Shown one piece after another: positions 7,998 to 27,891 of a stretch of 32,000 nt of DNA. Numbering within the stretch: the stretch's first letter is position 1; every line of letters starts with the position of its first letter. The stretch covers positions 1,830,001 through 1,862,000 of the forward strand of contig NZ_CP011304.1 in the NCBI RefSeq assembly GCF_000981785.2. Direction: 5' to 3'. The notes beneath the pieces are model-generated. The model worked only from the letters and a program-made list of their open reading frames with translations, did no database searches and was not told where the DNA came from. The DNA is from Microcystis aeruginosa NIES-2549 (GTDB lineage: Bacteria; Cyanobacteriota; Cyanobacteriia; Cyanobacteriales; Microcystaceae). A program made the position numbers and the translations under genes.

Positions 7998-8000
7998 TTT

Positions 8001-8529: not shown

Positions 8530-8637
8530 GGAAGAACCTAAACTAAAAATTGCTATCTTTGTACCAATAAGCCTATATATATTATACCCAACCAAATTGG
8601 ACGGGTATTCTCTTTCGACTTTAGTGCAGATCCTCCC

Positions 8638-9189: not shown

Positions 9190-9254
9190 GGTATAAATAT
9201 AAAATGAGAATCAAGTAACAATCTTTTAAGCACTGACCGAGGAGAAGGAAATCT

Positions 9255-9374: not shown

Positions 9375-9396
9375 TAAAAGTTTATAATTCTTAGTA

Positions 9397-9430
9397 AAAC
9401 CGACCGCCTAGGCGATCGGTTTTTAATTTT
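9397..9430 (+). terminator. Rho-independent terminator after psbY
   Basis: AAACCGACCGCC TAG GCGATCGGTTT stem followed by TTTTAATTTTT. Confidence 0.75.
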
Positions 9431-9438
9431 TCCTTTTT

Positions 9439-9457
9439 GAATTATGAATTATGAATT
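9439..9457 (+). repeat. Heptanucleotide repeat (GAATTAT) x2.7
   Basis: The string gaattatgaattatgaatt is read directly. Confidence 0.85.
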
Positions 9458-9487
9458 GGGGTATGGGGAGAACAAATAAAAATAATC

Positions 9488-9529
9488 TCCTGACTCCTGA
9501 ATCCTGTCTCCTGAATCCTGACTCCTAAC
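9488..9529 (+). repeat. Heptanucleotide repeat (TCCTGAM) x6
   Basis: The string tcctgac tcctgaa tcctgtc tcctgaa tcctgac tcctaac is read directly. Confidence 0.9.
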
Positions 9530-9566
9530 CCCACCAATACACTTTTTCAGCAAACCCTACCTAACC

Positions 9567-10901
9567 ATGAAATCTAACTGTCAAAATCTCATTGAAGAAC
9601 TTTCCCATCTGGAAATTATCACCGATCCGGGGCAAGTGGCGAAACTTTCCTTAGATTATTATCATTTTAGTCCCATTTTAGAAGCACAACTGCAAGATAA
9701 ACGGGCTGATTTAGTCATTCGTCCCCACAATAGCCAAGAAGTTATTGACATCGCTAAAACCTGCGTTAAATACCAAATTCCTTTAACAGTTAGAGGTGCG
9801 GGGACAGGTAATTATGGTCAATGTGTTCCCTTACGGGGAGGAGTAATTTTAGACACAACCAAACTAACAAAAATTATCTCGATCGAACCGGGTACAGCAC
9901 GGGTAGAAGCGGGGGTAAAAATGGCATTTTTTGATAAACAAGCTCGCGCAATTGGGTGGGAATTAAGAATGGCTCCCTCTACCTATCGGACGGCGACAAT
10001 TGGCGGTTTTATCGGGGGTGGCAGTGTGGGCATGGGTTCAATTAATTATGGACAATTGAAGGATAGAGGCAATCTGCAAGCAGTGCAATTAGTCACCCTA
10101 GAAGCGGAACCAAAAATTATCGAACTACGGGGGGATGAGGTAGAAAAAGTCAATCATGCCTACGGAACAAATGGCATTATTACCGAGTTAGAAATAGCCC
10201 TCGCTCCCTGTTATCCTTGGGCAGAATTTATCGTTACTTTTGCCGATTTTATCACCGCCGCTAAATTCGGTCAAGCTCTCAGTGATAGTGATGGCATTGT
10301 CAAGAAAATGGTTAGTGTTCACTCTTGGCCAATTCCTGCTTATTTTACTGCTCTTAAGGATTATTTACCCACGGGAAAAGCGGCAGTTTTGTTAATAGTA
10401 TCGGACAGCGATCGAGTCGCATTAGAATCTTTAATTAAAGAATATAATGGTGAACTTACCTACTATAAAACGCCAGAAGAAACTCAAAAAGGCAACAGTA
10501 TCTTAGAATTTACTTGGAATCATACCACTCTCCATGCGCGTAGTTTTAACCCCAAGATAACTTATCTACAAGCTTTTTATTTTAATCTAGCCACGGTAGA
10601 GAAACTCTATAATTATTTTGGGGAGGAAATAATGATGCACCTAGAATTTTTGAGATTTCAAGGTAAAGTTATTCCCGCCGGTCTTCCCTTGCTAGAATTT
10701 ACCACAGAAACTCGATTAAATGAGATTATTGCTATCTATGAACAACAGGGGGCAGCTATTGCCAATCCTCACACTTATATCATGGAAGATGGCGGCAGCA
10801 GACAGATTAATCCGCTACAACTAGAATTTAAACAACTCGTCGATCCCTACGGATTGAACAATCCGGGTAAAATGCGAGCATGGGTTGAAGCAAGGGGGTA
10901 G
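9567..10901 (+). CDS. FAD-binding (PCMH-type, FAD_binding_4-like) oxidoreductase
   Basis: RPHNSQEVIDIAKTCVKYQIPLTVRGAGTGNYGQ and the following GGVILDTTKL are typical of the FAD-linked oxidase N-terminal domain; 444 aa. Confidence 0.8.
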   Translation: MKSNCQNLIEELSHLEIITDPGQVAKLSLDYYHFSPILEAQLQDKRADLVIRPHNSQEVIDIAKTCVKYQIPLTVRGAGTGNYGQCVPLRGGVILDTTKLTKIISIEPGTARVEAGVKMAFFDKQARAIGWELRMAPSTYRTATIGGFIGGGSVGMGSINYGQLKDRGNLQAVQLVTLEAEPKIIELRGDEVEKVNHAYGTNGIITELEIALAPCYPWAEFIVTFADFITAAKFGQALSDSDGIVKKMVSVHSWPIPAYFTALKDYLPTGKAAVLLIVSDSDRVALESLIKEYNGELTYYKTPEETQKGNSILEFTWNHTTLHARSFNPKITYLQAFYFNLATVEKLYNYFGEEIMMHLEFLRFQGKVIPAGLPLLEFTTETRLNEIIAIYEQQGAAIANPHTYIMEDGGSRQINPLQLEFKQLVDPYGLNNPGKMRAWVEARG

Positions 10902-10941: not shown

Positions 10942-11097
10942 GGCTCTCTTGGATTTGGTGGGTAAAATGTATTCTAAGATATAATCCTCCTAGAGAGGGG
11001 GTGGAACGAACCACAAAGACACAAAGGACACAAAGATCAATCAATCATATTGTAAGTTAAACTTATCACACACAACCTAGAAGAGCCTCACCGCTAC
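10942..11097 (-). mobile_element. MITE family A, copy 2 (complete)
   Basis: Terminal inverted repeats GGCTCTCTTGG (left) and CCTAGAAGAGCC (right). It is flanked by the 7-bp direct repeat TCACCGC (10935-10941 and 11098-11104). Confidence 0.85.
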
Positions 11098-12585: not shown

Positions 12586-12918
12586 ATGACCATTACTGCG
12601 AGCGACCTACCGATGGAAAAAATTGCCCAGTTTTGCGATCGCTGGCAAGTGACCGAATTCGCTCTATTCGGCTCCGTCCTGCGCGAAGACTTCCGCCCCG
12701 ACAGCGACATTGATGTTATGGTGGAATTTCATCCAGAGGCTCATCCCACATTCAGCACCCTAGACCAAATGGAAGCAGAGCTAAAAACCATTTTCCATCG
12801 AGATGTTGACCTGATTACCCGCCAAGGCATTGCCACCAGTCGCAACTACCTACGCCGTAATCAAATCCTTTCTTCGGCTCAAGTGATTTATGCAACGGGA
12901 TCCCCAATTCCTGCTTGA
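12586..12918 (+). CDS. MNT-type nucleotidyltransferase (antitoxin of MNT/HepT type VII TA pairs)
   Basis: LFGSVLREDFRPDSDIDVMVEF is the GS..R...DSDID nucleotidyltransferase motif; 110 aa. Confidence 0.85.
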   Translation: MTITASDLPMEKIAQFCDRWQVTEFALFGSVLREDFRPDSDIDVMVEFHPEAHPTFSTLDQMEAELKTIFHRDVDLITRQGIATSRNYLRRNQILSSAQVIYATGSPIPA

Positions 12919-13006
12919 TATGCTGCAATCCGCAGATTTTGTCAGGTGCGTTTCTTGCTGCGACGACAGGGAACGCACCTTACCGATTATCGAAAATTTG
13001 GGTTAA
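12890..13006 (+). pseudogene. hepT (DUF86) toxin remnant, with only about 15 N-terminal codons retained
   Basis: ATG 12890 overlaps the MNT 3' end, as in intact MNT-HepT operons. MQRDPQFLLDMLQSA resembles HepT N-termini. From 12935 the frame runs into hairpin repeat copy A and stops at 13004-13006. Confidence 0.5.
12935..12987 (+). repeat. Hairpin repeat family H, copy A
   Basis: GATTTTGTCAGGTGCGTTTCTTG CTGCGACGA CAGGGAACGCACC TTACCGAT. The two arm differences from copy B are C->T changes opposite G, so they remain G-U compatible. Confidence 0.85.
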
Positions 13007-13340: not shown

Positions 13341-14036
13341 ATGTCAAGATACAATCGCGGCATATACTTCTCGCTTGCGACAACCGCGATGAATGTTTTC
13401 TGGCGCTATTTCCCCTTGGCATTTGTTGTTATGCTTTCTAATGGTTTCACCCCACACGCGATGAATGTTTTCTGGCGCTATTTCCCCTTGGCATTTGTTG
13501 TTATGCTTTCTAATGGTTTCACCCCACAACAAGGGCGAACGGAATCACCCAAAGTTACCTGTCAAATAGAAAGCTATCCCTCCACAAAGCAAAAAGTTCC
13601 CACGACAATGATCCAGAACGGAACGGGAAATTTAGTACCATTTATTTATTGGGTAGAGGAAGTTGCGGGGGAAAAGCCACTAGAGCGGTGCAAGGAAGTT
13701 TCTGAGATTATTCAAGCAAGATATGACGATAAAACCTGGAGTCGTTCTTTTTTACGGACGGGAAAATCGAGTGATAATTATCCGATCATTTGTTTTGTCA
13801 AGGAACCCAAAGATAAAGCTTGCGATACCGAAAGAGAACTTATCGTTAAATTAAAGCGAGGGGAAAACGCGGAAAGAGTTTTAGATAAGATGTTAGCCCT
13901 TCGCTATCGGTTAATAAGAAGAAACTTTCTTACATTCACGGATAATTTTATTTTTTATTCTGGGGGAGCCAACCTTTATATTGATGTTGATAAGTTTCTC
14001 GAAGAAGTGGAGCGATCAAGGACTGAAAGACAATGA
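13341..14036 (+). CDS. COP23-domain (circadian oscillating protein 23-like) protein; start codon uncertain
   Basis: FIYW, PLERCKEVSEIIQARYD, NYPIICF, ACD..RELIVKLKRGENAERVLDKML fit the COP23 pattern as I recall it. The 5' end contains a 72-bp tandem duplication providing alternative ATGs at 13389 and 13461. Confidence 0.65.
   Translation: MSRYNRGIYFSLATTAMNVFWRYFPLAFVVMLSNGFTPHAMNVFWRYFPLAFVVMLSNGFTPQQGRTESPKVTCQIESYPSTKQKVPTTMIQNGTGNLVPFIYWVEEVAGEKPLERCKEVSEIIQARYDDKTWSRSFLRTGKSSDNYPIICFVKEPKDKACDTERELIVKLKRGENAERVLDKMLALRYRLIRRNFLTFTDNFIFYSGGANLYIDVDKFLEEVERSRTERQ
13386..13529 (+). repeat. Tandem duplication, 2 x 72 bp (71/72 identical)
   Basis: Units 13386-13457 and 13458-13529 differ only at the last base. 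The duplication is in frame (24 codons, AMNVFWRYFPLAFVVMLSNGFTPH/Q twice). Confidence 0.95.
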
Positions 14037-15480
14037 TAAAAAGATGGTTCGCTTGGTTGGGTATTGTCTCGATATTGATACCTTTTCCTGTGGCAATCGC
14101 TCAGTTGGATCAATCACAATTAAAGGAGATTACCGTCAGAATTGATGTAGAAGGAAGCTATAAAGAGGATGGGGGTTCTGGGGTAATCGTTCGCCAGCAA
14201 GGACAATTCTACACGATTCTAACAGCATATCATGTGGTGCAAGAAAAGAGAAACTATAAAGTTTTAATTTTTAATCCTTCTAATCGGCAAATAATCGGTA
14301 GCCACATCATTAATGAGAAAAATATGGTTCTTCGGTTTGTGTTATGCGATGGATGGGGTTACAAGGGATGAAAACCTTATATAGAAAGACATTCGGAGAT
14401 TTATGTCAATTGTTTTCGATCTAGAACTAACTAATCAATTAAGTCTCTTGCCAGATAAGGATTTGGTCGATTTATGCCCCCCGATCAAACCATACCAAGT
14501 AACGAAGAACCAAAAATATTAAGCAAATTGACGATTACGATCTAGCGGAGATTACCATACAAAGTTCTGCTAAATATCGAACGGCGAATATAGGAGATAG
14601 CCAGCAATTACAACCCACCGATGATTTAACCGTTTCTGGCTATCCGCTTCCTTCCTCTCTGATTACAGAAAGGCTATCTACTTCCACCCTTAGACTGGGT
14701 AAATTTACTGATAGATTACCTCCTGATGCGCTACTAAAAAGACAAAAGGGGGCAACGCTGAAGATAGATGTAACAACGGAAGTCGGAATGAGTGGCGGCG
14801 CGGTTGTTAATAAAAATGGTGAATTAGTCGGAATATTAGTCGAAGCAGATAAAGACGCTTCTGGGAATAAATCATCATCTTTAGCGATTCCTATTAATTT
14901 ATATCCTCAGTGGCAAGCGATTCGGAATTCTCAAAGATTATCTTCCCCTCTTCCCTCTCCCAATCAAACTTTGGAGCAATTACTAGCAGCTAAAAAATGG
15001 GGACAAGCGAATGATAAAACTTGGGAGATTTTACTAAGTAAAGGCGATTCAGATAAGTCAGGCGATTTAGATAGCAATGAATTGCTATCTTTAAACTGTA
15101 AAACTCTAGCAGATCTAGATCTAGCGTGGCGTAAAGCATCTAATGGAAGATATGGATTTCGGTTACAAAGAAGCATTTATAATAAGTATCATTATACTTT
15201 GCCGCCTAGAGAGTCTCGGCTTTATCTTTATACAGAATTCGCTAAAGAGCTAGGTTGGTTTAACGATATTCAACAAGTATCAACTCTCTCAATTTCAAGT
15301 TTATACAATCAAAAAAATCCCAATCTCGGCTTTTACCCAATTTGGTTTGTTGACCGAGGACAATTAGGACAGTATCCTTTTGGTTTACCTTCCGATGATA
15401 ATCTATTGCGCGATCCTGGTTCAATTTGGGAAAGTAGGGGAACGATCTTGAGCGATATGTTAAAACGATGTTCGATATAA
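14033..15480 (+). pseudogene. Trypsin-like serine protease with a C-terminal GUN4-like domain, interrupted by a MITE
   Basis: Catalytic His (GSGVIV...YTILTAYHVV) lies in 14033..14371; Asp (DLAEI) and Ser (GMSGGAVV) lie downstream of the insert. The C-terminus (KKWGQANDKTWEIL...LNCKTLADLDLAWRKASNGRYGFRLQRSIY) fits the GUN4 pattern. Removing 14326-14519 gives one uninterrupted 1254-nt ORF (417 aa). ATG 14033 overlaps the COP23 stop (ATGA). Confidence 0.8.
14326..14511. mobile_element. MITE family B (186 bp) inserted in the protease gene
   Basis: Ends are GGTTCTTCG... and ...CGAAGAACC (imperfect roughly 30-bp inverted repeats). It is flanked by a perfect 8-bp direct repeat AAAAATAT (14318-14325 and 14512-14519). 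Confidence 0.85.
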
Positions 15481-17398: not shown

Positions 17399-17618
17399 TG
17401 GTTGAGGATGGTTGTTGATGGCATACAGCAGTTACTTTATTCCTCTGGTACAGCCAATTCCTTATTGGATAAACCTTTCAGGGTGGAGAATTTACCAGAA
17501 CAAACATGAATCCGCCGTAACGATATTATAACTACAGTGTAATCATTGATCTTATCGGATAAATTAGCCGTCAAGGAGAATAATAACGTTAGTGCGATAT
17601 CGATAATAATTATAATGA

Positions 17619-17664
17619 GATTTTGTCGGGTGCGTTCCCTGCTGCAACGACAGGGAACGCACCC
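17619..17664 (+). repeat. Hairpin repeat family H, copy B (perfect 14-bp stem)
   Basis: GATTTTGTC GGGTGCGTTCCCTG CTGCAACGA CAGGGAACGCACCC. Confidence 0.9.
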
Positions 17665-17792
17665 TATGCCATTTTTCTTTATTCGTGGCAGACATCTTAC
17701 TCCCATTTTCTTTTCTAGAATAGGGTTTGAGGTTGGAGGCAATTAACCATCTCTGCCATTACTTTAGAAAAATGGTATTAGCAAGGTCCTAT

Positions 17793-18494
17793 TCACGTTT
17801 CATCAGGATTATCTTCTATATTGTTGACTTTCGTTAATTGTGGAAAAATATCTCGTACTGACTTTTCAAATTTTTTGTAGGAAGATAAGGATTCTAATTT
17901 CGACAATGGGATTTTTGTACCAATCTGTGAATATAAATCGTCAATTTTTAGTTTATTTCGATAGCGTTTAGTAATACCTTCTCTGGCTTTATTGATGGCA
18001 TTTTTAATCGTTTCTTTCGGATTGCTAAAAGATTCGGGATCTTTATCGATTGCTAACTCACTATCACTTTTCTTTGTACACAATTCTTTTTTTAGTAATT
18101 CTTTGTCTGCTAATATCCAGGCTTCAGTCATTTGTATTGGAACGATAGCAACTAAATTTTTACATAAGTCTCGCTCGTCTGATTTAATAGCATTAAAAGC
18201 CGGATCAATTCTTTCCTTAAATGCGTTTTCATCTGTTTTATCATCTGCGTCTGCATGGAAGCACAAAACCATTGCTCCCTTCTCCACCGCTTGAATTGCG
18301 TATTTTTTAGCTTTTTCTCGGATATTTTCGCCAGAGATTTGTGGAAGACAAATTGGGTCAAAAATTTCTATTTCTTGTTCATCGTCAAAAGCAACTCTCT
18401 CGAAAGTGCGCTGAATAATATTCGTTAAAAATCTATGATCGGAACTGCCTTCTGTAGCTAAGGCAATAATTATTTGTTTGATTTTTTTTGCCAT
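17793..18494 (-). CDS. DUF4276-like / TOPRIM-like protein, partner of the upstream ABC ATPase
   Basis: 233 aa. It has acidic motifs spaced as in TOPRIM/DUF4276: IIIALATEGSSD, LCFHADADD, PIQMTEAWILAD. Its start lies 10 nt after the ATPase stop. Confidence 0.7.
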   Translation of the reverse strand: MAKKIKQIIIALATEGSSDHRFLTNIIQRTFERVAFDDEQEIEIFDPICLPQISGENIREKAKKYAIQAVEKGAMVLCFHADADDKTDENAFKERIDPAFNAIKSDERDLCKNLVAIVPIQMTEAWILADKELLKKELCTKKSDSELAIDKDPESFSNPKETIKNAINKAREGITKRYRNKLKIDDLYSQIGTKIPLSKLESLSSYKKFEKSVRDIFPQLTKVNNIEDNPDET

Positions 18495-18504
18495 CTTAAT
18501 TGAT

Positions 18505-19929
18505 TTACATTAATTGGTTTTGTTGATTTTTAATATTTTTAATCGCACTTTCAGCATCAGCAGTTTTTAGATATTCGACAACTTCCGAGAGAGTTAGCTT
18601 GGCCTCATTTTCGGATAAAAATAAGGTTAATTGCTTTTTATTATCTTTGATAACAGGGTGAAAATTACTGCTTTTCATCTTAATTCGCTTCCCTTCAATA
18701 GTGGATATTCGATTGGTAAGTTGAGAAAGCCAAATGCTGACATTTTTATCATCTTGCCAATTAATTAATTGACTCACCAGAACCGGAGAATGAGTGTTCA
18801 CTATTACTTGGCGTAAAGGCATTTCAGTATCTTCAAAATCGACAGTTAGCTCTTTTAATAATCTTGCCATTGCTTCAATACGAAAAGGATGAATGCCATT
18901 TTCTGGCTCTTCAAAACACAGTAATCCTGTGTGTTGTCGGTCGTATTGCAGGACACATAATGTTAATAAACGTAGGGTTCCTTCGGAAAGCACTCTTGAA
19001 GAAAACTCCCGACCATCATCACCTTTTACCTTGATAATAAATTGTCGATTTGCTTTGTCGTCATAAACATTAACTTCTGTAAGATTCGGTAGCAGATTAT
19101 TGAGATCACGGGAAATTGCTGTGAGGGTATATTCATCATCTTGTTTAATGCGAAATAAAGCAGCGGCTAAATTCTTTCCGCTTGCTGTTATTGTATCTCT
19201 GATGCCCATATCTTGACGAGTAGGTTCTCGCAAATCTTCGGGATTAAGCTGCATAAACTTCCAACTCAGCATTTCTTGTTTGGCGGCTAATATATGTTTA
19301 AAATCTATAGTATTAATGCTGCTTAAAACAGTTTGTGATGCGTTTTTTGCGGGAAATACTTTTTTATTTCCTTGTTGACCGTCTTGAGGTACAACAATGG
19401 TAGCAATACCATTAATATCTTCAGTCTTAATATAAGGAATGGCTCTCCTACCCGTTACTTTTGGTCGCCAAGTTTCCAATACTGTCTTAGGAATATAATT
19501 TTTTACCCAATTATCTTCATTGTGCTTTAAATTTTCTAAACGTTCATCAACAATATACAAGTTTTCAAAGCCACTTATATTAGACTCTCGTTTAATTTTT
19601 AATTGATACCGTAATCTTGTATATTTAAGATCGACTTCCCCACCCCAATTATCTTTTACTTTGCGATTGACTAACATTTCCACTATAAATTCCATTTCCG
19701 TGGCGTAGTCGTCCTCATCATATTGGGTAAAAAGTTCGCTAGGATGTCCTCGCTGCTCGCTAAAAGCCGTCTTCAGATCCACTTCTGCCAACCGCGTCAA
19801 CAATTGCAAAGCATCAAATAAATTACTCTTACCAGAAGCATTAACCCCAGCAACTACAGTAAGCGGCGTAAATTCCATTTCAAAATTATGAAAGGATTTA
19901 AAGCCATGAATTTTAATATAAGTAATCAT
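18505..19929 (-). CDS. ABC-type (AAA_15/AAA_21, OLD/RecF-like) ATPase
   Basis: Walker A GVNASGKSNLFDAL, signature-like LSEGTLRLLTL, Walker B LLCFEEPENGIHP, H-loop VIVNTHSP; 474 aa. Confidence 0.85.
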   Translation of the reverse strand: MITYIKIHGFKSFHNFEMEFTPLTVVAGVNASGKSNLFDALQLLTRLAEVDLKTAFSEQRGHPSELFTQYDEDDYATEMEFIVEMLVNRKVKDNWGGEVDLKYTRLRYQLKIKRESNISGFENLYIVDERLENLKHNEDNWVKNYIPKTVLETWRPKVTGRRAIPYIKTEDINGIATIVVPQDGQQGNKKVFPAKNASQTVLSSINTIDFKHILAAKQEMLSWKFMQLNPEDLREPTRQDMGIRDTITASGKNLAAALFRIKQDDEYTLTAISRDLNNLLPNLTEVNVYDDKANRQFIIKVKGDDGREFSSRVLSEGTLRLLTLCVLQYDRQHTGLLCFEEPENGIHPFRIEAMARLLKELTVDFEDTEMPLRQVIVNTHSPVLVSQLINWQDDKNVSIWLSQLTNRISTIEGKRIKMKSSNFHPVIKDNKKQLTLFLSENEAKLTLSEVVEYLKTADAESAIKNIKNQQNQLM

Positions 19930-20060
19930 AGTTTTAGGCGATAAGTAATATTAAAACATCAGCGCAATATTTAACCATACTGGAAAATCTTATCAACTTT
20001 CGCCTGATACTGTCCTACTATAATCTAGACATTGGCTTACAGGGGTAGTGCAATTACGCC

Positions 20061-20113
20061 GATTTTGTCGGGTGCGTTCCCTGCTGCAACGAGGGAGAAC
20101 GCACCTTACCGAT
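20061..20113 (+). repeat. Hairpin repeat family H, copy C
   Basis: GATTTTGTCGGGTGCGTTCCCTGCTGCAACGAGGGAGAACGCACCTTACCGAT. It shares the TTACCGAT tail with copy A, and its stem has one bulge. Confidence 0.85.
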
Positions 20114-20901: not shown

Positions 20902-21057
20902 TTCTTCGGAAATCCCGAAAGGAAACCAATAATCTAAAACAAATGTATTATCCGAGAATTAAGTCTCTGGATTGCAATCACAGGCACTCACAGGGGTTAA
21001 CCTAGGAGCAAAAGACTATTGTGAAGCATAGTCTAAAAATTGATGACCGAGTTTACT

Positions 21058-21199
21058 GGCTCTTCTAGGTTCTGTGTGATAAGTTTAACTCACAATATGA
21101 TCGATCTTTGTGTCCTTTGTGTCTTTGTGGTTCGTTCCACCCCCTCGCTAGGAGGAATGTATCTTAGAATACATTTTACCCACCAAGCCTGGGAGAGCC
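21058..21199 (+). mobile_element. MITE family A, copy 3 (complete)
   Basis: Terminal repeats GGCTCTTCTAGG and CCTGGGAGAGCC. The 7-bp direct repeat GTTTACT lies at 21051-21057 and 21200-21206. The right target duplication ends 1 nt before the stop codon (21208-21210) of the convergent ferredoxin-like gene. Confidence 0.88.
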
Positions 21200-22840: not shown

Positions 22841-22975
22841 GGTTCTGTGGTTAAAATGTATTCTGAGATACGGTAACGCCGGTGGGCGAGTGGAACGAAC
22901 CACAGAGATACAAAGGACACAAAGATCGATCGCTCCTATATCAATTAAACTTATCACACAAAGAATAAGAGAGCC
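22841..22975 (-). mobile_element. MITE family A, copy 4 (one terminal repeat degenerate)
   Basis: It shares the family core in inverted orientation. It is flanked by the direct repeat TCTGATG(GG) at 22834-22840(42) and 22976-22982(84). The left end lacks the GGCTCT terminal repeat. Confidence 0.75.
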
Positions 22976-23081: not shown

Positions 23082-23738
23082 ATGCCGATTGGTGTGGCTG
23101 AATTTGTCGAAAATCAGGAAAATCGCTGTCCTGTGGTACTACTACTAGATACCTCTGGTTCAATGCAAGGGGAACCGATTAAGGCTCTCAATGATGGCAT
23201 CAAAACCTTTCAGGAGGATGTGATGCGGGATACCCAAGCGACGTTGAGCGTAGAAACCGCCATTGTCACCTTTGGTAAGGGAGGGGTTAAAACCGTGCAA
23301 GATTTTGTCGGGATTGACCAATTTACGCCACCTACTTTAAGCGCAGGAGACTTAACCCCGATGGGAGAAGCGATTGAATTGGCCTTAGATTTAATCGAAG
23401 ATCGTAAAGCGATTTATAGAAATAATGGTATCCAATATTATCGCCCCTGGATATTTTTAATTACTGATGGTGCGCCTACGGATCAATGGAATCTGGCAGC
23501 GCAACGGGTAAAACAAGCAGAAGCAGAAAATCGGGTTTTATTTTTTTCTGTAGGTGTTCAGGGGGCCGATATGGAGAAGCTCAAACAGATTTCTAATAAA
23601 CCCCCTGTGTTACTCAATGGTTTAGATTTTCGGGAATTATTTCAGTGGTTAAGTAACTCAATGAAACGAGTTTCTGGTGGTAAAATTGGAGCGGCGATCG
23701 CTTTACCACCAGTGAATTGGGGACAAATTACCACCTAG
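23082..23738 (+). CDS. von Willebrand factor A (TerY-like) protein
   Basis: MIDAS motif VVLLLDTSGSMQG, a later LTPMGEAI, and WIFLITDGAPTD; 218 aa with no signal peptide. Confidence 0.85.
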   Translation: MPIGVAEFVENQENRCPVVLLLDTSGSMQGEPIKALNDGIKTFQEDVMRDTQATLSVETAIVTFGKGGVKTVQDFVGIDQFTPPTLSAGDLTPMGEAIELALDLIEDRKAIYRNNGIQYYRPWIFLITDGAPTDQWNLAAQRVKQAEAENRVLFFSVGVQGADMEKLKQISNKPPVLLNGLDFRELFQWLSNSMKRVSGGKIGAAIALPPVNWGQITT

Positions 23739-23748
23739 AGGAAAGTCA

Positions 23749-24510
23749 ATGATGTGGAGAACATTATGTCAGTCAGTGGTCGGTAGTTTTCACGTCCAAA
23801 CGGGATTACCCTGTCAAGATTACGGTGATTATAAATTATTGGGTCAGGATGTTTTGATTGGAGCCGTGGCCGATGGGGCCGGTAGTGCCAAACATTCGGA
23901 TTTAGGGGCGAAAATAACAGTTAAAGCAGCGCTGCAATTTTTAGAGTATAAGCTCAAAAAAACAGCATTAGCTGCCACTGGAACTGAAGCGGAATTAAAG
24001 GAAATATTCCGGCGACTGTTGGCTTATGTTCAGCAAATTCTCCAAGAAGAAGCCGAAAAAGAACAGTTAGACATTAATGATCTGGCGACAACTTTACTGG
24101 TTGTTTTGGTTACTTCAAAACGATTAGCGGCGATGCAGATAGGAGATGGTTTTATTGTGTTCAAACCTCTGGGAGGAAATTATCAGTTATTGTTTCAGCC
24201 TGACAAGGGTGAATACATCAATGAAACCACTTTTGTTACTTCTAGTAATGCTTTGGAGGATATGCAAATAAAAGTTTTAACCGAGCCAGTTGCCTTTATT
24301 TGTGTGGCGACGGATGGAGTGGAAAAGGTATCGATCGATTATAAAAATTGGCAGCCTTTTCCTCCTTTTTTTCAGCCATTAGAGGAATATTTACAACAGA
24401 CAGAAACGCCATTGCAAGAAGACCTCAAAGAATTTTTAAAGCGGGAGGATTTAAATAAGTTAACAACCGATGATAAAACCTTACTCCTAGCTTTTTGTTT
24501 AAGAAACTGA
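23749..24510 (+). CDS. PP2C-family (PP2C_2-like) protein phosphatase
   Basis: GSFHVQTGLPCQDYG...GAVADGAGSAKHSDLGA...MQIGDGFIV...VATDGV. The start is 10 nt after the vWA stop with AGGAAAG between them. Confidence 0.8.
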   Translation: MMWRTLCQSVVGSFHVQTGLPCQDYGDYKLLGQDVLIGAVADGAGSAKHSDLGAKITVKAALQFLEYKLKKTALAATGTEAELKEIFRRLLAYVQQILQEEAEKEQLDINDLATTLLVVLVTSKRLAAMQIGDGFIVFKPLGGNYQLLFQPDKGEYINETTFVTSSNALEDMQIKVLTEPVAFICVATDGVEKVSIDYKNWQPFPPFFQPLEEYLQQTETPLQEDLKEFLKREDLNKLTTDDKTLLLAFCLRN

Positions 24511-24518
24511 GGGGTTTA

Positions 24519-24551
24519 AGAAACCGGGTTTGTTTGACAAACCCGGTTTCT
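24519..24551 (+). terminator. Strong stem-loop after the PP2C gene
   Basis: Perfect 14-bp stem AGAAACCGGGTTTG / CAAACCCGGTTTCT with a 5-nt loop, 8 nt after the stop. There is no long U-tract. Confidence 0.55.
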
Positions 24552-24599
24552 GGCTCTGGTTCAACCCAACCTATGATAAGACTATGGACTAAGTAAATC

Positions 24600-24911
24600 A
24601 TGAAAATTGACGAATTACTCAAAAACAAACGAGAAAAAATTATTGCTATTGCGGCTAAACACGGCGCAAATAACGTGCGAATTTTTGGTTCTGTTGCACG
24701 GGGAGAAGCTGACGAAAAAAGCGATATTGATTTATTAATTGATTATTGTAGCGAACGTCGGAGTCCCTGGTTTCCCTTGCCGTTAATTCGAGAACTCGAA
24801 GCCTTGTTAGGCTGTAAAGTTGATATTGTTACCGAACAGGGACTTAAAGATAGAATCAGAGAGCGGGTACTAAAAGAAGCAATACCCATCGCTCTAATAA
24901 AACTCGTATAA
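24600..24911 (+). CDS. MNT-type nucleotidyltransferase (orphan; no HepT partner follows)
   Basis: RIFGSVARGEADEKSDIDLLIDY; 103 aa. Confidence 0.85.
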   Translation: MKIDELLKNKREKIIAIAAKHGANNVRIFGSVARGEADEKSDIDLLIDYCSERRSPWFPLPLIRELEALLGCKVDIVTEQGLKDRIRERVLKEAIPIALIKLV

Positions 24912-24935
24912 TCTCAATGAGAAAGGCAAACAATC

Positions 24936-25325
24936 GTGAGCAAAAAATCTATCAAAAGCTACTTGAAGAGAATTGATGCGATGACGGATGAGAATATCGA
25001 TTATTCTGATATTCCGCCATTAGGTGATGAATTCCTTACCCAAGAAACAGTATCTTTTTCGACATCAAAGCAGCAATTAACTATACAACCTATGGCAGAT
25101 TTAATCGTCCGCAATATCGATGAAGCCATCGTCAAAGCTCTCAAAAAGCGAGCCAGCCAACACGGGATCAGTGCCGAAGCCGAACACCGCCAAATCTTAG
25201 AAAAAGCCTTGCTGCAACCGCAACGAAAATCCCTAGCAGAGGTGCTACGCCAGATTCCCAACGTTGGCAACGATTCAGACTTTGATCGCGTTCAAGATGA
25301 CACAGCCAAACCAGTATTTGATTGA
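24936..25325 (+). CDS. Ribbon-helix-helix (FitA/VapB-like) antitoxin, possibly with a BrnA/DUF4415-like N-terminal extension
   Basis: The C-terminal 78 aa from ATG 25092 (MADLIVRNIDEAIVKALKKRASQHGISAEAEHRQILEKAL) look like a FitA/VapB-type RHH antitoxin. The upstream in-frame part from GTG 24936 contains MTDENIDYSDIPPLGDEF, which is reminiscent of BrnA/DUF4415. Which start is used is unclear. Confidence 0.6.
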   Translation: MSKKSIKSYLKRIDAMTDENIDYSDIPPLGDEFLTQETVSFSTSKQQLTIQPMADLIVRNIDEAIVKALKKRASQHGISAEAEHRQILEKALLQPQRKSLAEVLRQIPNVGNDSDFDRVQDDTAKPVFD

Positions 25326-25373
25326 TACTAAGTAGGTAGGCGTTAAAAATTATCAGACACCCCCGTTATCAAG

Positions 25374-25403
25374 GGTAGGGTTGATTCATGAATCAACCCT
25401 ACC
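25374..25403. repeat. Perfect 30-bp palindrome
   Basis: GGTAGGGTTGATTCA|TGAATCAACCCTACC was checked base by base. It is flanked by TTATCAAGG at 25366-25374 and 25404-25412. Confidence 0.95.
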
Positions 25404-25539
25404 TTATCAAGGGGGGATCAAGGGGGGATTAAAGGCAAAATCCATTTTTAATTTAATTATAACCAGCTACTTATATCTAACTTATTAGAAACGACTAGAT
25501 AAAATTTTCTGAACAGCACAAATACTCGGAGATTTTTTG

Positions 25540-27522
25540 ATGTCTTTAACTTATCGCTGTCAACTACAGAATCGCTGGATTACACTGACGCAAGAACTGG
25601 CCGACAGTGGCGAGGCGAAAGTATGGCACACTAACTTTAATGGGTACTTAGCGAAAATCTACCACAATCCCCATAATGAAAGGGTTGATAAATTACAGTT
25701 AATGGTGAGAAATCGTCCCAGTGATCCTAACGTTCATCTTAACCATATTTCCTTCGCTTGGCCCTATTCTATCTTGGAAGATAACCAGGGAAAAGTCGTT
25801 GGTTTTTTAATGCCAGAAGTGGTGGGTTCAGAAACATTATTAAAGCTTTGTACGCCCATAATGAGAAGAAAATACAAGTTAGAAACTAATTGGTATATTC
25901 TTCATGTAGTAGCGCGGAATATAGCCGCTATTATCGAAGCAATTCACCTTAAAGGTTATGTTTTGGGAGACATCAAGCTAGAAAATATCTTAGTGAATAA
26001 TCGGGCGTTGCCTACAATTATTGATACAGATTCATTTCAAGTATCAGATCCGGATAGCGGTAAAATATATCGGTGTTTAGTTGGCTCAGAAGGATTTACA
26101 CCGGCGGAATTAATCGGAGTGAATATAGCAGATGTAAATCAAACAGAAGTGCATGATCGCTTTCGATTAGGAGTTGTTATTTATTATCTATTATTTAGCG
26201 GGCCGCCGTTTCGGGGATTGTGGCAAGGAGGAGGGGATTCCCTGGAACAGTCGGAACTAATTCGACGGGGACTATGGCCTTTTTCTGGTGATAAATTGCT
26301 TGTACCTAGTAATACTACCATACCATTAAATATTTTACATCCCGACTTACACGCCTTATTTTTGCGCTGTTTTAATGAGGGACATAAATTCCCCCACAGA
26401 CGACCGACGGCTAAGGAATGGTGCGATACTTTGGAAGCTGCACGACAAGAGGTTATACCCTGTGGCAAAGTTGATAATCATTACTACAGTCGCCGTTACG
26501 GAAAGTGTTATTGGTGTGAGCGATTTAGTGATTTAAATCTTGATATTTTTCCGGGGAACAGTATCGCTACTGTGACACCTACACCGTCACCTAAAGTAGT
26601 GCCACCACCTCCCCCACGCATACCTCCTCCAAGATGGTCGCGTCGTAAAGTTTTAATAAATTTGGGTTTAGTTACAGTAGGGACAGTCGCTAGTAATATT
26701 TTCGCTCAGTTGTTTCGTCAGAATCCTACTCCTTCTCCTTCACCTCGTCCTTCAAGTTCTCCATCTCCTCCTTCACCTCGTCCTTTAGCTCCTCCATTTA
26801 CCGAAAAACTACCCAATCGAGTCACACTAGAGATGGTGAGCTTACCAGCAGGTGAGTTTCTCATGGGTTCTCCTGACAGTGATCCCAATGCTCGCGATAA
26901 TGAAAAGCCTCAACACCAAGTTAAAGTAAACAGTTTTGCTATTGGGAAATATCCAGTGACTCAGGCACAATATCAAGCGGTAATGGGAACCAATCCCTCT
27001 CGGTTTCAAAATAATCCCCAAAATCCGGTAGAAAAGGTTAGTTGGAATGACGCTCAAGCCTTTTGTCGGAAATTGAGTCAGATAACAGGGAAAACCTATC
27101 GTCTCCCCACAGAAGCGGAATGGGAATATGCCTGTCGTGCGGGGACAACTACTCGCTATTATTTCGGTGATGATGCCAATCAGTTAGGAGATTACGCTTG
27201 GTATAAAGGAAATTCTCAGGCTAAAACTCATCCTGTGGGCCAGAAAAGGGCCAATGCTTGGGGACTGTATGATATGAGTGGCAATGTTTGGGAGTGGTGC
27301 GAAGACGATTGGCACGATAACTATATCGGAGCGCCAAAGGATGGCAGTGCTTGGCTAAAAAATGGTAATGATAATCGTTCTCCATTGCGGGGCGGTTCTT
27401 GGTACATCGATCCTTATAGCTGCCGTTCTGCTTACCGCTACTACTTCATCCGCCGCGTCCTCTACGACTACCCCTACTTCAACGGTTTTCGGGTGGTGTG
27501 CGGTGCTGGGAGGACTCTGTAA
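25540..27522 (+). CDS. Transmembrane Ser/Thr protein kinase with a C-terminal FGE/SUMF1 (formylglycine-generating-enzyme-like) domain
   Basis: ATG 25540. Kinase motifs are YLAKIY (Lys), LGDIKLENILV (catalytic loop), IIDTDSF (DFG-like) and GSEGFTPAE. These are followed by a Cys cluster (CGKVDNHYYSRRYGKCYWC), a Pro-rich linker, a TM helix (VLINLGLVTVGTVASNIFAQLF) and a Pro/Ser linker. FGE-sulfatase motifs follow (FAIGKYPVTQAQY, VSWNDAQAFC, RLPTEAEWEYACRAG, NAWGLYDMSGNVWEWC, LRGGSW). Confidence 0.85.
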   Translation: MSLTYRCQLQNRWITLTQELADSGEAKVWHTNFNGYLAKIYHNPHNERVDKLQLMVRNRPSDPNVHLNHISFAWPYSILEDNQGKVVGFLMPEVVGSETLLKLCTPIMRRKYKLETNWYILHVVARNIAAIIEAIHLKGYVLGDIKLENILVNNRALPTIIDTDSFQVSDPDSGKIYRCLVGSEGFTPAELIGVNIADVNQTEVHDRFRLGVVIYYLLFSGPPFRGLWQGGGDSLEQSELIRRGLWPFSGDKLLVPSNTTIPLNILHPDLHALFLRCFNEGHKFPHRRPTAKEWCDTLEAARQEVIPCGKVDNHYYSRRYGKCYWCERFSDLNLDIFPGNSIATVTPTPSPKVVPPPPPRIPPPRWSRRKVLINLGLVTVGTVASNIFAQLFRQNPTPSPSPRPSSSPSPPSPRPLAPPFTEKLPNRVTLEMVSLPAGEFLMGSPDSDPNARDNEKPQHQVKVNSFAIGKYPVTQAQYQAVMGTNPSRFQNNPQNPVEKVSWNDAQAFCRKLSQITGKTYRLPTEAEWEYACRAGTTTRYYFGDDANQLGDYAWYKGNSQAKTHPVGQKRANAWGLYDMSGNVWEWCEDDWHDNYIGAPKDGSAWLKNGNDNRSPLRGGSWYIDPYSCRSAYRYYFIRRVLYDYPYFNGFRVVCGAGRTL

Positions 27523-27581: not shown

Positions 27582-27609
27582 CCCGCCTAGCGGCGGGTCG
27601 ATTTTTTTT
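27582..27609 (+). terminator. Rho-independent terminator after the kinase gene
   Basis: CCCGCC TAGC GGCGGG followed by TCGATTTTTTTT. Confidence 0.65.
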
Positions 27610-27694: not shown

Positions 27695-27891
27695 ACCTTT
27701 ATCATTCGGGTTGCGTGTGTCTTTCTGTGATTAACCCTTTGCCCTCTAGTCTTTTTGCCCTTTGCTCTTCTGTCTTTCCCACCTAACGGCGGGTCAATTT
27801 TCAGCATTTTAGGTCTCTTTTTCGTTCTGGGTCTCTAGATTTAATCTATCTGCTCTTGTCAAAAAACTCCAGTTCTCTAACTGGTAGGGGT

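What the first reader, a model, noticed from the sequence alone, without database searches (positions are those of the whole stretch)
23082..27522. vWA + PP2C + Ser/Thr kinase triad (TerY-P type) whose kinase is a membrane receptor with an FGE/SUMF1-like ectodomain
Seen: the vWA gene (MIDAS DTSGS) and the PP2C gene are translationally close (10-nt gap with an SD). A kinase gene lies on the same strand 1 kb downstream. Established: vWA(TerY)-PP2C-kinase triads were defined by comparative genomics as 'TerY-P triads'. As I recall, such a triad was reported to protect against phage in a large defence-system screen. Unusual here: the kinase carries a Cys cluster, a TM helix flanked by Pro-rich linkers, and a full FGE-sulfatase-like domain predicted to face outward. 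This implies an extracytoplasmic sensing input to a cytoplasmic vWA/phosphatase pair. This receptor-type variant has no known ligand or output.
Basis: partly seen in the sequence, partly recalled or inferred. Interest (0 to 1): 0.7.

Follow-up and report, generated by a model that had tools for sequence, protein, structure and literature searches.

The report
Hypervariable receptor kinase in vWA–PP2C triad
A Microcystis three-gene phospho-signalling cassette (metal-binding vWA protein, PP2C phosphatase, membrane kinase) is real and conserved, and the kinase's outward-facing "sulfatase-enzyme-like" domain is really a binding domain whose tip is rewritten by a diversity-generating retroelement.

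Summary
The window (Microcystis aeruginosa NIES-2549) encodes a vWA protein (23082-23738), a PP2C (23749-24510) and, 1 kb downstream on the same strand, a kinase with a Cys/His module, one TM helix and an FGE-sulfatase/C-type-lectin (CLec) domain (25537-27522).

The triad is homologous to E. coli YegL / PphC / YegI and recurs in Synechocystis and in metagenomic relatives, so it fits the TerY-P definition. No PADLOC model matched the vWA or PP2C proteins.

- The 1-kb gap is a mosaic of decayed toxin-antitoxin cassettes, and its content differs between strains.
- The last ~40 residues of the "FGE" domain are a diversity-generating-retroelement (DGR) variable region. I found 52 alleles in 75 orthologues, with 98% NNY-encodable residues. 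In the syntenic orthologue every mismatch to the template falls on a template adenine. The genome encodes the RT (AKE65309.1).

The kinase is AKE64189.1. A 2020 paper already lists it as a remote DGR target and as putatively non-cytoplasmic, but does not mention the vWA/PP2C partners.

Caveat: the window's own allele does not match the one template I recovered. About a fifth of alleles lack the TM helix.

Verdict: a new variant of known kinds, of moderate interest.

The parts
23082..23738 (+). vWA (TerY/YegL-type) protein, 218 aa, with MIDAS DxSxS...T...D; = AKE64185.1
   Evidence: Pfam VWA 2.9e-13. 55% identical to E. coli YegL over 185 aa, E 7e-70. Accession; JGI names cluster members 'uncharacterized protein YegL'.
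23749..24510 (+). PP2C-type Ser/Thr phosphatase, 253 aa, starting 10 nt after the vWA stop codon
   Evidence: Pfam PP2C_2 5.3e-62. 33% identical end to end to E. coli PphC/YegK, which is also 253 aa, E 6e-39. The VADGAGS motif containing the PphC catalytic Asp is conserved.
24518..24551 (.). Perfect palindrome (AAACCGGGTTTG...CAAACCCGGTTT) just after the PP2C stop codon
   Evidence: Read. It appears as an inverted self-match in the junction comparison. The terminator scan did not call it, because there is no T-run.
24600..24911 (+). MntA-like nucleotidyltransferase antitoxin gene whose HepT partner is missing and whose 3' end has been replaced
   Evidence: NTP_transf_2 3e-12 and MntA NF047752 6e-11. 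Homology to the intact MntA-HepT pairs of L001/L052 stops at 24886.
24887..25508 (+). Strain-variable mosaic of decayed toxin-antitoxin cassettes. It holds a BrnT/BrnA remnant (24882-25089) fused to a FitA/VapB-like RHH (ORF 24936-25325, RHH core about 25095-25211). No toxin gene is present.
   Evidence: FitA-like_RHH 6.4e-16. 97.6% identity to the L049 BrnT/BrnA region. Other strains have different inserts at the same junction: MntA-HepT (L001, L052), MntA-HepT plus BrnT-BrnA (L049), and a YoeB pair (L036).
25537..27522 (+). YegI-type Ser/Thr kinase with Cys/His module, TM helix and CLec domain; = AKE64189.1 (annotated start is the ATG at 25540)
   Evidence: 100% identical to P0007; accession. 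33% identical to E. coli YegI over 369 aa, E 3e-46.
25537..26451 (+). Hanks-type kinase catalytic domain (aa 1-305). K40, D145, N150 and D163 are invariant or nearly invariant across the family.
   Evidence: AF2 model with a deep alignment: pLDDT 95.6, pTM 0.92. Foldseek matches eukaryote-like kinases and PknB at E about 1e-10 to 1e-12.
26422..26526 (+). Cys/His module (C296, C309, H315, C324, C327; C-x5-H-x8-C-x2-C), in the position where TerY-P kinases carry a zinc ribbon
   Evidence: The motif is conserved in E. coli YegI and in 138 of the 150 nearest family representatives. C308, H314, C323 and C326 are invariant or nearly so. Confidently modelled. Zinc binding was not tested.
26650..26718 (+). 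Single predicted transmembrane helix (aa 372-394) between Pro-rich linkers
   Evidence: It is the only 19-residue window with Kyte-Doolittle mean >1.6 (value 1.77). The N-side flank has 5 K/R and the C-side flank has 1. It is present in 81 of 103 Microcystis kinase-CLec clusters and absent in 22.
26830..27498 (+). C-type-lectin-fold (Pfam FGE-sulfatase) domain, aa 432-654
   Evidence: FGE-sulfatase 5.7e-56. PDB sequence matches are PvdO at 3e-35 and the DGR variable protein TvpA (2y3c) at 4e-29.
27386..27519 (+). DGR-type variable region. The variable codons run 27403-27483, all NNC/NNT, on the scaffold RGGSW-xxx-P-xx-CRSA-x-R-xxxx-RR-...-GFRVVCGAGRTL.
   Evidence: Entropy is 1.3-1.6 bits here against 0.02-0.56 over residues 1-600. 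There are 52 alleles among 75 orthologues, and 98.4% of residues at the 17 variable positions are NNY-encodable. The window and L032 differ at codon positions 1 and 2 only: 20 differences against 0 at position 3. Only the first 56 nt match the recovered NIES-2549-type template.
27582..27597 (+). GC hairpin (CCCGCC-TAGC-GGCGGG) followed by a T-run, after a T-rich tract. It is terminator-like, and could also be the DGR target-recognition hairpin.
   Evidence: Terminator scan. It is repeated behind the relic tail at 27761-27801 (family D8).
27703..27800 (+). Relic of the 3' end of the other Microcystis variable-region family (TTCGGGTTGCGTGTGTCT...TAACCCTTTGCC...), with its own hairpin
   Evidence: Matches the tail of the 144-nt family and of the template. 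The stretch containing it is 97% conserved in L001.

Best explanation
This is a YegL/PphC/YegI-type (TerY-P-type) phospho-switch cassette whose kinase input domain has been replaced by a DGR-diversifiable C-type-lectin binding domain.

Shown:
- The vWA, PP2C and kinase genes are homologues of the E. coli trio and travel together across genera.
- The kinase has a canonical, catalytically complete Hanks fold plus a conserved Cys/His module.
- It has one TM helix with positive-inside polarity.
- Its CLec domain ends in a variable region that has been rewritten many times in the Microcystis population by adenine-specific mutagenesis.
- The host genome encodes the Avd-RT-template cassette elsewhere.

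Inferred mechanism:
1. The CLec tip, facing the periplasm (or the thylakoid lumen), binds a ligand whose identity depends on the current variable-region allele.
2. Binding promotes kinase oligomerisation and autophosphorylation in the cytoplasm. For YegI, activation follows second-order kinetics.
3. The kinase phosphorylates a partner. The co-conserved vWA/MIDAS protein is the most likely partner.
4. The PP2C resets the switch. PphC dephosphorylates YegI in vitro.

The output is unknown. The 1-kb gap is a hotspot where toxin-antitoxin cassettes insert and decay. Only 28 nt upstream of the kinase start codon is conserved between strains. One possible reading, which I did not test, is that the kinase is transcribed by read-through from upstream.

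In this particular strain the variable-region allele does not match the one template I could recover. It may therefore be served by a second template, or be currently frozen.
For: - Domains.
- Homology to YegL, PphC and YegI with the same gene order, and with an unrelated gene also inserted between the phosphatase and kinase genes in K-12.
- Synteny in sister strains and in Synechocystis. vWA-PP2C-kinase(TPR/PDZ) with no intervening gene and an abutting PP2C-kinase(FGE) pair in relatives.
- Kinase fold: pLDDT 95.6, Foldseek kinase matches, invariant K/D/N/D and C/H/C/C columns.
- Topology: plus the 'putative non-cytoplasmic' listing in PMC7517822 Table S3.
- Variable-region hypervariability.
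- Adenine specificity: 190 of 384 mismatches at template A sites against 15 of 960 at non-A sites (Fisher p about 1e-101). The syntenic orthologue L001 scores 18/32 against 0/80.
- Repertoire: 98.4% NNY-encodable residues at the variable positions, with K/E/Q/M/W at 1.6% against 17.5% in the rest of the protein.
- Recent turnover of window-type variable regions: pairs 99-99.7% identical over residues 1-600 but 44-46% identical in the variable region.
- Avd-RT-template cassette. AKE65309.1 of NIES-2549 belongs to that RT cluster, and contigs carrying that exact protein carry the same template.
- CLec domain similarity to TvpA.
Against: - The window's variable region is 9 nt longer than the recovered template. 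It has a different scaffold in its 3' half (CGC-CGC versus AGG...CCC) and a different 3' homing region (GTGGTGTGCGGTGCTGGG versus GTTGCGTGTGTCTCCCCAG).
- No template of the window type was found in the genome, metagenome or viral scans, or next to a second RT lineage.
- PMC7517822 Table S1 names only AKE65350.1 and AKE62606.1 as remote targets. The 'RVP' label for AKE64189.1 appears only in Table S3. The paper's Methods define remote VPs by >=50% nucleotide identity of the putative variable region to a cassette VP, which is a loose criterion.
- 22 of 103 alleles or paralogues lack the TM helix, so extracytoplasmic placement is not essential to the family.
- Phosphotransfer to the vWA protein has not been shown for any member of the family.
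- Topology rests on hydropathy and charge only. No dedicated predictor was available.
Confidence: 0.62

Rival explanations
1. Frozen receptor. In NIES-2549 this variable region is a fossil. It arrived by recombination from a lineage served by a different template, and the resident DGR can no longer rewrite it. The kinase therefore works as a fixed-specificity receptor within the triad.
For: The only template recovered next to the exact NIES-2549 RT is the 144-nt type, and it matches the window's variable region only over 56 nt, with a non-matching 3' homing region. A relic of the matching tail lies 180 nt downstream. This implies that the original, template-compatible 3' end was displaced. Table S1 of PMC7517822 does not list this gene among the remote targets.
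Against: Window-type variable regions are the majority form: about 66 of 75 orthologues have the GAGRTL tail. They show very recent turnover between otherwise 99.7%-identical genes, so a cognate template must exist somewhere in the population. I could not search the full NIES-2549 chromosome for a second template.
Confidence: 0.4
2. Anti-phage defence system. The triad is a TerY-P defence system in which the hypervariable CLec domain senses a phage component at the envelope, and the kinase triggers a protective or abortive response.
For: TerY-P-like triads protect against T7-like phages (Gao 2020, as summarised in PMC7699616 and PMC11090510). DGR-diversified CLec domains are proposed invader-binding modules in cyanobacterial conflict systems (PMC7159879). 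Defence-type neighbours are present: a HEC-01 pair 3 kb upstream and a toxin-antitoxin insertion hotspot inside the cassette.
Against: No PADLOC model matched the vWA protein, and the PP2C gave only a marginal unrelated match. I could not confirm that this library copy holds TerY-P models. The validated TerY-P variant has an OB-fold kinase rather than a membrane CLec kinase. The cassette sits among housekeeping genes (infC, thioredoxin, NnrU, a P450) in conserved synteny, not in a mobile island. No effector gene is evident. E. coli YegL/PphC/YegI has no reported defence phenotype in the papers I read.
Confidence: 0.2
3. Cytoplasmic binding domain. The hydrophobic segment is not a true membrane span, or the protein sits in the thylakoid membrane. 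The CLec domain then selects cytoplasmic or lumenal partners, for example by determining which proteins the kinase phosphorylates.
For: 22 of 103 related kinase-CLec proteins lack the segment altogether, including one at the same locus (L049) with tandem CLec domains. Vallota-Eastman 2020 report that most cyanobacterial DGR variable proteins are predicted cytosolic, and propose substrate selection as one model. The segment is only moderately hydrophobic (1.77) and contains Gly, Thr, Ser and Asn.
Against: The segment is 22-23 residues long, is the only such segment in the protein, and has a clear positive-inside charge bias. It is conserved in Synechocystis and metagenomic orthologues. About half of the nearest family members have exactly one such segment after the kinase. 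The published analysis lists this protein as putatively non-cytoplasmic.
Confidence: 0.15
4. Unrelated neighbours. The kinase is functionally independent of the vWA-PP2C pair, and they are adjacent only by history.
For: 1 kb of unrelated, strain-variable DNA separates them. A palindrome follows the PP2C stop codon.
Against: The same three families are adjacent in E. coli, Synechocystis, Microcystis and metagenomic relatives whatever the kinase's C-terminal domain, and are contiguous in some. PphC acts on YegI in vitro.
Confidence: 0.07
5. Enzymatic domain. The C-terminal domain is an active FGE/PvdO/EgtB-type oxidase.
For: Strong Pfam FGE-sulfatase and NCBIfam PvdO matches. PvdO is the best PDB sequence match.
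Against: All NCBIfam matches are far below the curated cut-offs: 142 bits against 500 for PvdO, and 90 against 360 for EgtB. From my own knowledge of human FGE, the catalytic Cys pair lies in the segment that aligns with the variable region, and here the position of the first Cys is one of the hypervariable sites. The variable-region scaffold is the one found in the DGR target TvpA.
Confidence: 0.03

Closest known systems
E. coli YegL - PphC (YegK) - YegI
   Same: All three proteins are homologous: 55%, 33% and 33% identity, with the vWA and PP2C proteins of near-identical length. The gene order vWA, PP2C, kinase is the same. K-12 also has an unrelated gene (yegJ) between the phosphatase and kinase genes. 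The kinase shares the atypical catalytic motifs and the C-x5-H-x8-C-x2-C module. YegI is an active membrane kinase, and PphC dephosphorylates it.
   Different: [quoted passage not shown] The Microcystis kinase has a single TM helix and a 230-aa CLec domain beyond it, with a DGR variable region.
TerY-P triad (Anantharaman et al. 2012; Gao et al. 2020), as described in PMC11090510
   Same: A TerY-like vWA protein, a PP2C and an STK followed by a zinc-ribbon-like Cys/His module.
   Different: The defence-validated form has an OB-fold after the kinase. No PADLOC model matched the vWA protein, and the PP2C gave only a marginal unrelated match. Here the kinase continues into a TM helix and a CLec domain. 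The genes are interrupted by toxin-antitoxin debris. No tellurite-resistance, restriction or CoCoNuT genes are nearby.
Cyanobacterial DGR 'remote variable proteins' with STK + CLec architecture (Vallota-Eastman et al. 2020, PMC7517822)
   Same: This very protein, AKE64189.1, is listed there as 'CLec & Pkinase (RVP)' and as putatively non-cytoplasmic. The genome's RT is AKE65309.1.
   Different: A text search of that paper and its supplements found no mention of the vWA/PP2C neighbours, of YegI/TerY-P homology, or of the Cys/His module. 'PP2C' and 'phosphatase' are absent apart from one reference title. Its remote-target criterion is >=50% variable-region identity. Here I add population evidence of real diversification, and I also show that this allele does not fit the recovered template.
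Treponema denticola TvpA (PDB 2y3c) and Bordetella phage Mtd
   Same: A C-type-lectin/FGE-like fold with a C-terminal DGR variable region. TvpA is the second-best PDB sequence match at 4e-29, and the GGSW scaffold aligns.
   Different: TvpA and Mtd are stand-alone surface or tail-fibre binding proteins. Here the domain is the C-terminal module of a transmembrane kinase.

Membership tests
TerY-P / YegL-PphC-YegI triad | TerY/YegL-type vWA protein with an intact MIDAS | tested here: met
   Pfam VWA 2.9e-13. 55% identity to YegL, with the DxSxS, TPMG and ITDGAPTD motifs aligned. JGI names cluster members YegL.
TerY-P / YegL-PphC-YegI triad | Adjacent PP2C phosphatase | tested here: met
   PP2C_2 5.3e-62, starting 10 nt downstream of the vWA gene. 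33% identity over the full length of PphC.
TerY-P / YegL-PphC-YegI triad | Ser/Thr kinase fused at its C-terminus to a zinc ribbon | tested here: inconclusive
   The kinase fold is confident. A conserved C-x5-H-x8-C-x2-C module follows it in 138 of 150 relatives and in YegI. I did not examine the metal-site geometry, and zinc binding is untested.
TerY-P / YegL-PphC-YegI triad | Three genes co-oriented and conserved as a neighbourhood | tested here: met
   Same strand and order in Microcystis, Synechocystis, E. coli and metagenomic relatives. Here they are interrupted by 1 kb of toxin-antitoxin remnants.
TerY-P / YegL-PphC-YegI triad | Recognised by defence-system models (PADLOC) | tested here: inconclusive
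   No family matched the vWA protein even at E<=10. The PP2C gave only PDC-M36B at E 0.043. The kinase matched only mad6, PD-T4-6 and MkoA weakly. I could not list the library's contents, so I do not know whether it holds TerY-P models.
TerY-P / YegL-PphC-YegI triad | Anti-phage or tellurite-related phenotype | not testable with these tools
   This requires phage challenge or tellurite assays.
DGR variable (target) protein | C-terminal variable region on a CLec/FGE-like fold | tested here: met
   FGE-sulfatase 5.7e-56. TvpA match at 4e-29. Variability is confined to aa 618-655.
DGR variable (target) protein | Variation restricted to positions templated by adenines (AAC/AAT codons) | tested here: met
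   In the orthologue group, 98.4% of residues at variable positions are NNY-encodable. All 27 variable-region codons of the window end in C or T, and the window and L032 differ only at codon positions 1 and 2. For the 144-nt family: 190/384 mismatches at A sites against 15/960 at non-A sites.
DGR variable (target) protein | A cognate template repeat differing from this variable region only at adenines, with a matching 3' homing region | tested here: not met
   The recovered NIES-2549-type template matches only 27386-27441. The length, the 3' scaffold and the homing region all differ. No other template fitted. The syntenic orthologue L001 does meet this feature: 18/32 mismatches at A sites and 0/80 at non-A sites. 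The complete NIES-2549 genome could not be searched.
DGR variable (target) protein | Reverse transcriptase and Avd encoded in the same genome | tested here: met
   AKE65309.1 (MYAER_2969, NIES-2549) is a member of the Avd-RT-template cassette's RT cluster. Contigs carrying that exact protein carry Avd and the template. It is also listed in PMC7517822 Table S1. It is not in the window.
Formylglycine-generating enzyme / PvdO / EgtB enzymes | Scores above the curated family cut-offs, and a conserved catalytic site | tested here: not met
   NCBIfam scores: PvdO 142 against a cut-off of 500, EgtB 90 against 360, SenA 81 against 420. The segment that aligns with the FGE catalytic Cys pair is the hypervariable region (the position of the catalytic pair is from my own knowledge).

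The most novel reading that the evidence does not exclude
The cassette is a programmable surface sensor. A DGR rewrites the ligand-binding tip of a membrane kinase, and the kinase's cytoplasmic signal is read out by a dedicated vWA protein and reset by a PP2C. Microcystis populations would thereby carry a rapidly evolvable receptor repertoire, with 52 alleles in 75 genes, for variable biotic ligands such as cyanophage proteins or competitor and kin surface molecules. This would also give TerY-P-type triads their first identified input logic.
Probability: 0.2. Interest if true: 0.8.

Novelty: new variant of a known kind. Interest (0 to 1): 0.5.

Why it matters
Two poorly understood systems meet in this cassette:
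- DGR-diversified kinases of cyanobacteria are catalogued, but no downstream partners are known for them.
- TerY-P/YegLKI triads have established biochemistry (an active kinase and a cognate phosphatase), and one variant has a defence phenotype, but their input signal is unknown.

If the link is functional, each system supplies what the other lacks. The triad offers a candidate substrate (the vWA protein) and a reset enzyme for a DGR-tuned receptor. The hypervariable CLec domain suggests that this triad senses a fast-changing ligand.

Natural alleles in this bloom-forming organism provide ready-made controls:
- with the TM helix (this window);
- without the TM helix (BLCCF108);
- disrupted by an IS element (NIES-2481);
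- not diversified (Synechocystis PCC 7338).

The junction that repeatedly captures and loses toxin-antitoxin cassettes is also a tidy example of a TA insertion hotspot inside an operon-like cassette.

Tried and rejected
1. Template or RT inside the window: none. Repeat search and Pfam scans of the larger ORFs across the window.
2. Genome-collection scan with the variable-region scaffold pattern. It found templates only in other Microcystaceae and Tumidithrix, not in Microcystis species representatives.
3. RT search seeded from the L017 RT. No Microcystis-named hit in the top 120, which was misleading. The Microcystis RT appeared only after I predicted the all-adenine template, found L035, and searched with its frameshift-repaired RT.
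4. Window-type template: not found in viral contigs nor beside a second RT lineage, L056.
5. I guessed that P0106 (NIES-2481) was the DGR cassette protein. That was wrong. It is the same locus, with the kinase gene split by an IS element.
6. Full-length AlphaFold model: mean pLDDT 38, unusable, so no fold search was run on it. Only the kinase + Cys/His module gave a good model. There is therefore no structural view of the variable-region surface.
7. The GC hairpin at 27582-27597 as a DGR recognition cruciform. It cannot be told apart from an ordinary intrinsic terminator, so I make no claim.
8. The promoter scan found fewer sites than the shuffled controls (8 against a mean of 10), so it says nothing about transcription units.
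9. Rfam: nothing in or near the cassette. The only match is the L10 leader at 1543-1659.
10. PADLOC: negative for the vWA and PP2C proteins even at loose thresholds.

Full report
**Source and observation.** The window comes from Microcystis aeruginosa NIES-2549. The kinase ORF is 100% identical to P0007 = AKE64189.1, and the vWA protein is AKE64185.1.
- a 218-aa vWA protein (23082-23738; Pfam VWA 2.9e-13; MIDAS DTSGS);
- a 253-aa PP2C (23749-24510; PP2C_2 5.3e-62), starting 10 nt after the vWA stop codon behind an AGGA motif;
- a 661-aa ORF (25537-27522; the annotated ATG is at 25540) on the same strand, 1,026 nt further on, with Pkinase (1.6e-9) and FGE-sulfatase (5.7e-56) domains.

The kinase has Cys at 296, 309, 324 and 327. 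It has one hydrophobic segment (372-394), flanked by Pro-rich linkers.

**What lies in the 1-kb gap.** Comparison with sister strains shows this is a mosaic of decayed toxin-antitoxin cassettes:
- Homology to the intact MntA-HepT pair of other strains stops at 24886.
- 24882-25089 is 97.6% identical to part of an intact BrnT-BrnA pair in strain BLCCF108.
- Homology resumes only 28 nt before the kinase start codon.

The same junction carries MntA-HepT in L001, L002 and L052. It carries MntA-HepT plus BrnT-BrnA in L049, and a YoeB pair on the opposite strand in Synechocystis PCC 7338. E. coli K-12 also has an unrelated gene, yegJ, at this junction. According to the PphC preprint, the E. coli B strain has yegI immediately downstream of pphC.

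**Is it a real triad?** Yes.
- The vWA protein is 55% identical to E. coli YegL (E 7e-70).
- The PP2C is 33% identical over the full 253 aa of PphC/YegK.
- The kinase is 33% identical to YegI over 369 aa, including a shared C-x5-H-x8-C-x2-C motif.
- The three genes keep the same order in Microcystis strains, and in Synechocystis PCC 7338 in a different neighbourhood.
- A relative whose kinase ends in TPR/PDZ domains has the three genes with no intervening gene (L051). A stromatolite-metagenome relative has PP2C directly abutting a kinase-FGE gene (L050).

The literature defines TerY-P as a TerY-like vWA protein, a PP2C and an STK fused to a zinc ribbon (PMC11090510), and this cassette fits that description. 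However, no PADLOC model matched the vWA protein. The PP2C gave only a marginal unrelated match, and the kinase hit only generic kinase models. I could not confirm that this PADLOC copy holds TerY-P models. The phage-defence-validated form has an OB-fold after the kinase.

**The kinase module.** With a deep family alignment, residues 1-357 fold at pLDDT 95.6 and pTM 0.92. The model matches Hanks-type kinases, including PknB. The VAIK-type Lys, the catalytic Asp and Asn and the DFG-type Asp are invariant or nearly so, as are C308, H314, C323 and C326.

The family is large: 2,366 clusters at E<=1e-30. Among the 150 nearest cluster representatives:
- 138 keep the Cys/His motif;
- 76 have exactly one TM segment after the kinase;
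- only 2 carry a CLec domain.

In a 69-member subset, 13 carry TPR repeats and about 7 carry WD40. A membrane-anchored kinase with a swappable C-terminal domain is therefore the norm for this family. The CLec fusion is the unusual part.

YegI itself is an active kinase. [quoted passage not shown] PphC dephosphorylates it (10.1101/303594).

**Topology.** The single segment 372-394 has 5 K/R on its N-side flank and 1 on its C-side flank, and there is no signal peptide. The kinase needs ATP, so it must be cytoplasmic. That places the CLec domain outside, or in the thylakoid lumen; I cannot tell which. The published survey lists this protein as 'putative non-cytoplasmic'.

Against treating this as essential: 22 of 103 Microcystis kinase-CLec clusters lack the segment. 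One of these is an allele at the same locus in BLCCF108, which has two CLec domains.

**The 'FGE' domain is a DGR variable domain.** Among 75 Microcystis orthologues, column entropy is 0.02-0.56 bits over residues 1-600 but 1.3-1.6 bits in residues 621-660. An invariant scaffold, RGGSW...P..CRSA.R....RR...GFRVVC, is interleaved with positions sampling N/Y/D/S/F/L/G/V/I/H. The evidence:
- There are 52 distinct alleles.
- 98.4% of residues at 17 variable positions are encodable by NNY codons. K/E/Q/M/W make up 1.6% there, against 17.5% in the rest of the protein.
- All 27 variable-region codons of the window end in C or T.
- The window and L032 differ 20 times at codon positions 1-2 and never at position 3.
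- Gene pairs 99-99.7% identical over residues 1-600 share only 44-46% identity in the variable region.
- The domain's best PDB sequence matches are PvdO and TvpA, a solved DGR variable protein.
- All enzyme-family NCBIfam scores are far below their cut-offs.

**Finding the retroelement.** Neither a template nor an RT is in the window.
1. A scaffold-pattern scan of species-representative genomes found canonical cassettes (target, Avd, RT, template) in related Microcystaceae, but none in Microcystis.
2. From twelve 144-nt Microcystis variable regions I inferred the template and scanned metagenomes for the all-adenine version. The single hit, L035, is Avd-RT-template, and its template is almost exactly as predicted.
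3. The intact RT (P0241) sits on short Logan contigs.
4. Its 90% cluster includes AKE65309.1 = MYAER_2969 of NIES-2549.
5. Contigs encoding that exact protein carry the same template.

Against this template, the twelve variable regions show 190 of 384 mismatches at adenine sites and 15 of 960 elsewhere (p about 1e-101). L001, the syntenic orthologue of the window's kinase, shows 18/32 against 0/80.

**Prior literature.** Vallota-Eastman et al. 2020 (PMC7517822) list NIES-2549 as a DGR genome, with RT AKE65309.1 and cassette VP AKE65307.1. Table S3 lists AKE64189.1 under 'CLec & Pkinase (RVP)' and under 'putative non-cytoplasmic paralogs'. Table S1 names only AKE65350.1 and AKE62606.1 as remote targets. 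A text search found no mention there of PP2C, of phosphatase partners, or of YegI/TerY-P. The DGR-target status of this gene is therefore not new. The link to the triad appears to be new within the library I searched.

**Limitation for this allele.** The window's variable region (153 nt, tail ...GFRVVCGAGRTL) matches the recovered template only over 27386-27441. Its 3' scaffold and homing region differ. A relic of the template-compatible tail lies at 27703-27800 and is conserved in L001, which suggests that the 3' end was replaced. No window-type template was found, and I could not search the whole NIES-2549 chromosome. The allele may be served by a second template or be frozen.

The Synechocystis orthologue has a degenerate tail containing K, Q and M, so it looks undiversified. 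In NIES-2481 the kinase gene is split by an IS element.

**Mechanism and verdict.** The best-supported reading is a YegL/PphC/YegI-type phospho-switch whose kinase carries a DGR-diversifiable CLec sensor, most likely facing outward. The steps are inferred by analogy with YegI/PphC and are not shown here:
1. Ligand binding drives oligomerisation and autophosphorylation.
2. The vWA protein is the likely partner.
3. The PP2C resets the switch.

A defence role is possible but unsupported beyond family resemblance and neighbourhood hints, such as the HEC-01 pair upstream. I rate this a new variant of known kinds, with interest 0.5.

Noticed in passing
window 17793-19929 (-): A strong match to the candidate defence pair HEC-01: a 474-aa AAA_15/AAA_21 ATPase (PADLOC HEC-01A, 1.4e-141) and a 233-aa DUF4276 protein (HEC-01B, 1.5e-48). 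It lies in a low-GC stretch (0.35-0.37 against 0.43-0.48 elsewhere), 3 kb upstream of the triad and separated from it by infC and redox genes.
   Followed up: partly
window 24887-25508; L001, L049, L052, L036: The PP2C-kinase junction is a toxin-antitoxin insertion hotspot. Across the strains examined it holds four different cassette types in different states of decay. In the window both antitoxin-like genes lack toxin partners, and the RHH ORF is a BrnA-RHH chimera.
   Followed up: yes
window 27703-27800 (and L001 about 13970-14100): Stacked relics of variable-region 3' ends, each a tail followed by a T-rich tract and a GC hairpin, lie downstream of the kinase gene. This implies repeated replacement of the gene's 3' end.
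   Followed up: partly
L052 (M. aeruginosa NIES-2481), 6174-9956: At the syntenic locus the kinase gene is split by a DDE_Tnp_1 transposase into a 215-aa N-terminal fragment and a 651-aa remainder with tandem CLec domains. This is a natural knock-out allele.
   Followed up: partly
L049 (M. aeruginosa BLCCF108), 6708-7100 and 7001-9634: The first ~130 nt of the kinase gene, with its 28-nt leader, is duplicated upstream of the gene. The allele has no TM helix and two CLec domains. More FGE-domain genes lie 4-6 kb downstream.
   Followed up: no
window 12931-12987, 17615-17671, 20057-20113: Three copies of a 57-nt palindromic repeat (77-86% identity). One copy directly follows a second MntA-like nucleotidyltransferase gene (12586-12918).
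   Followed up: no
window 13385-13528: A perfect 72-nt tandem duplication inside the COP23-like ORF (13341-14036). It is in frame and adds 24 residues.
   Followed up: no
window 1386-1507, 21057-21174; 11001-11050, 22890-22939: A MITE-like repeat family (88-92% identity). One copy sits about 140-190 nt upstream of the vWA start codon, overlapping a spurious 84-aa minus-strand ORF.
   Followed up: no
window 1543-1659 (+): Ribosomal protein L10 leader (Rfam RF00557, 48.5 bits) upstream of the L10 gene at 1758-2306. This was the only Rfam match in the window.
   Followed up: no
window 4949-5983 (-): A 344-aa FHA plus adenylate/guanylate cyclase protein. FHA domains bind phospho-threonine, so it is another Ser/Thr-phosphorylation-linked signalling gene in the window. 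It is unrelated to the triad by position.
   Followed up: no
L035 786-800: The metagenome copy of the Microcystis-type RT has a frameshift in an A8/A9 homopolymer, while the Logan copies (L039 and others) are intact. It is either a sequencing error or a phase-variable tract.
   Followed up: partly
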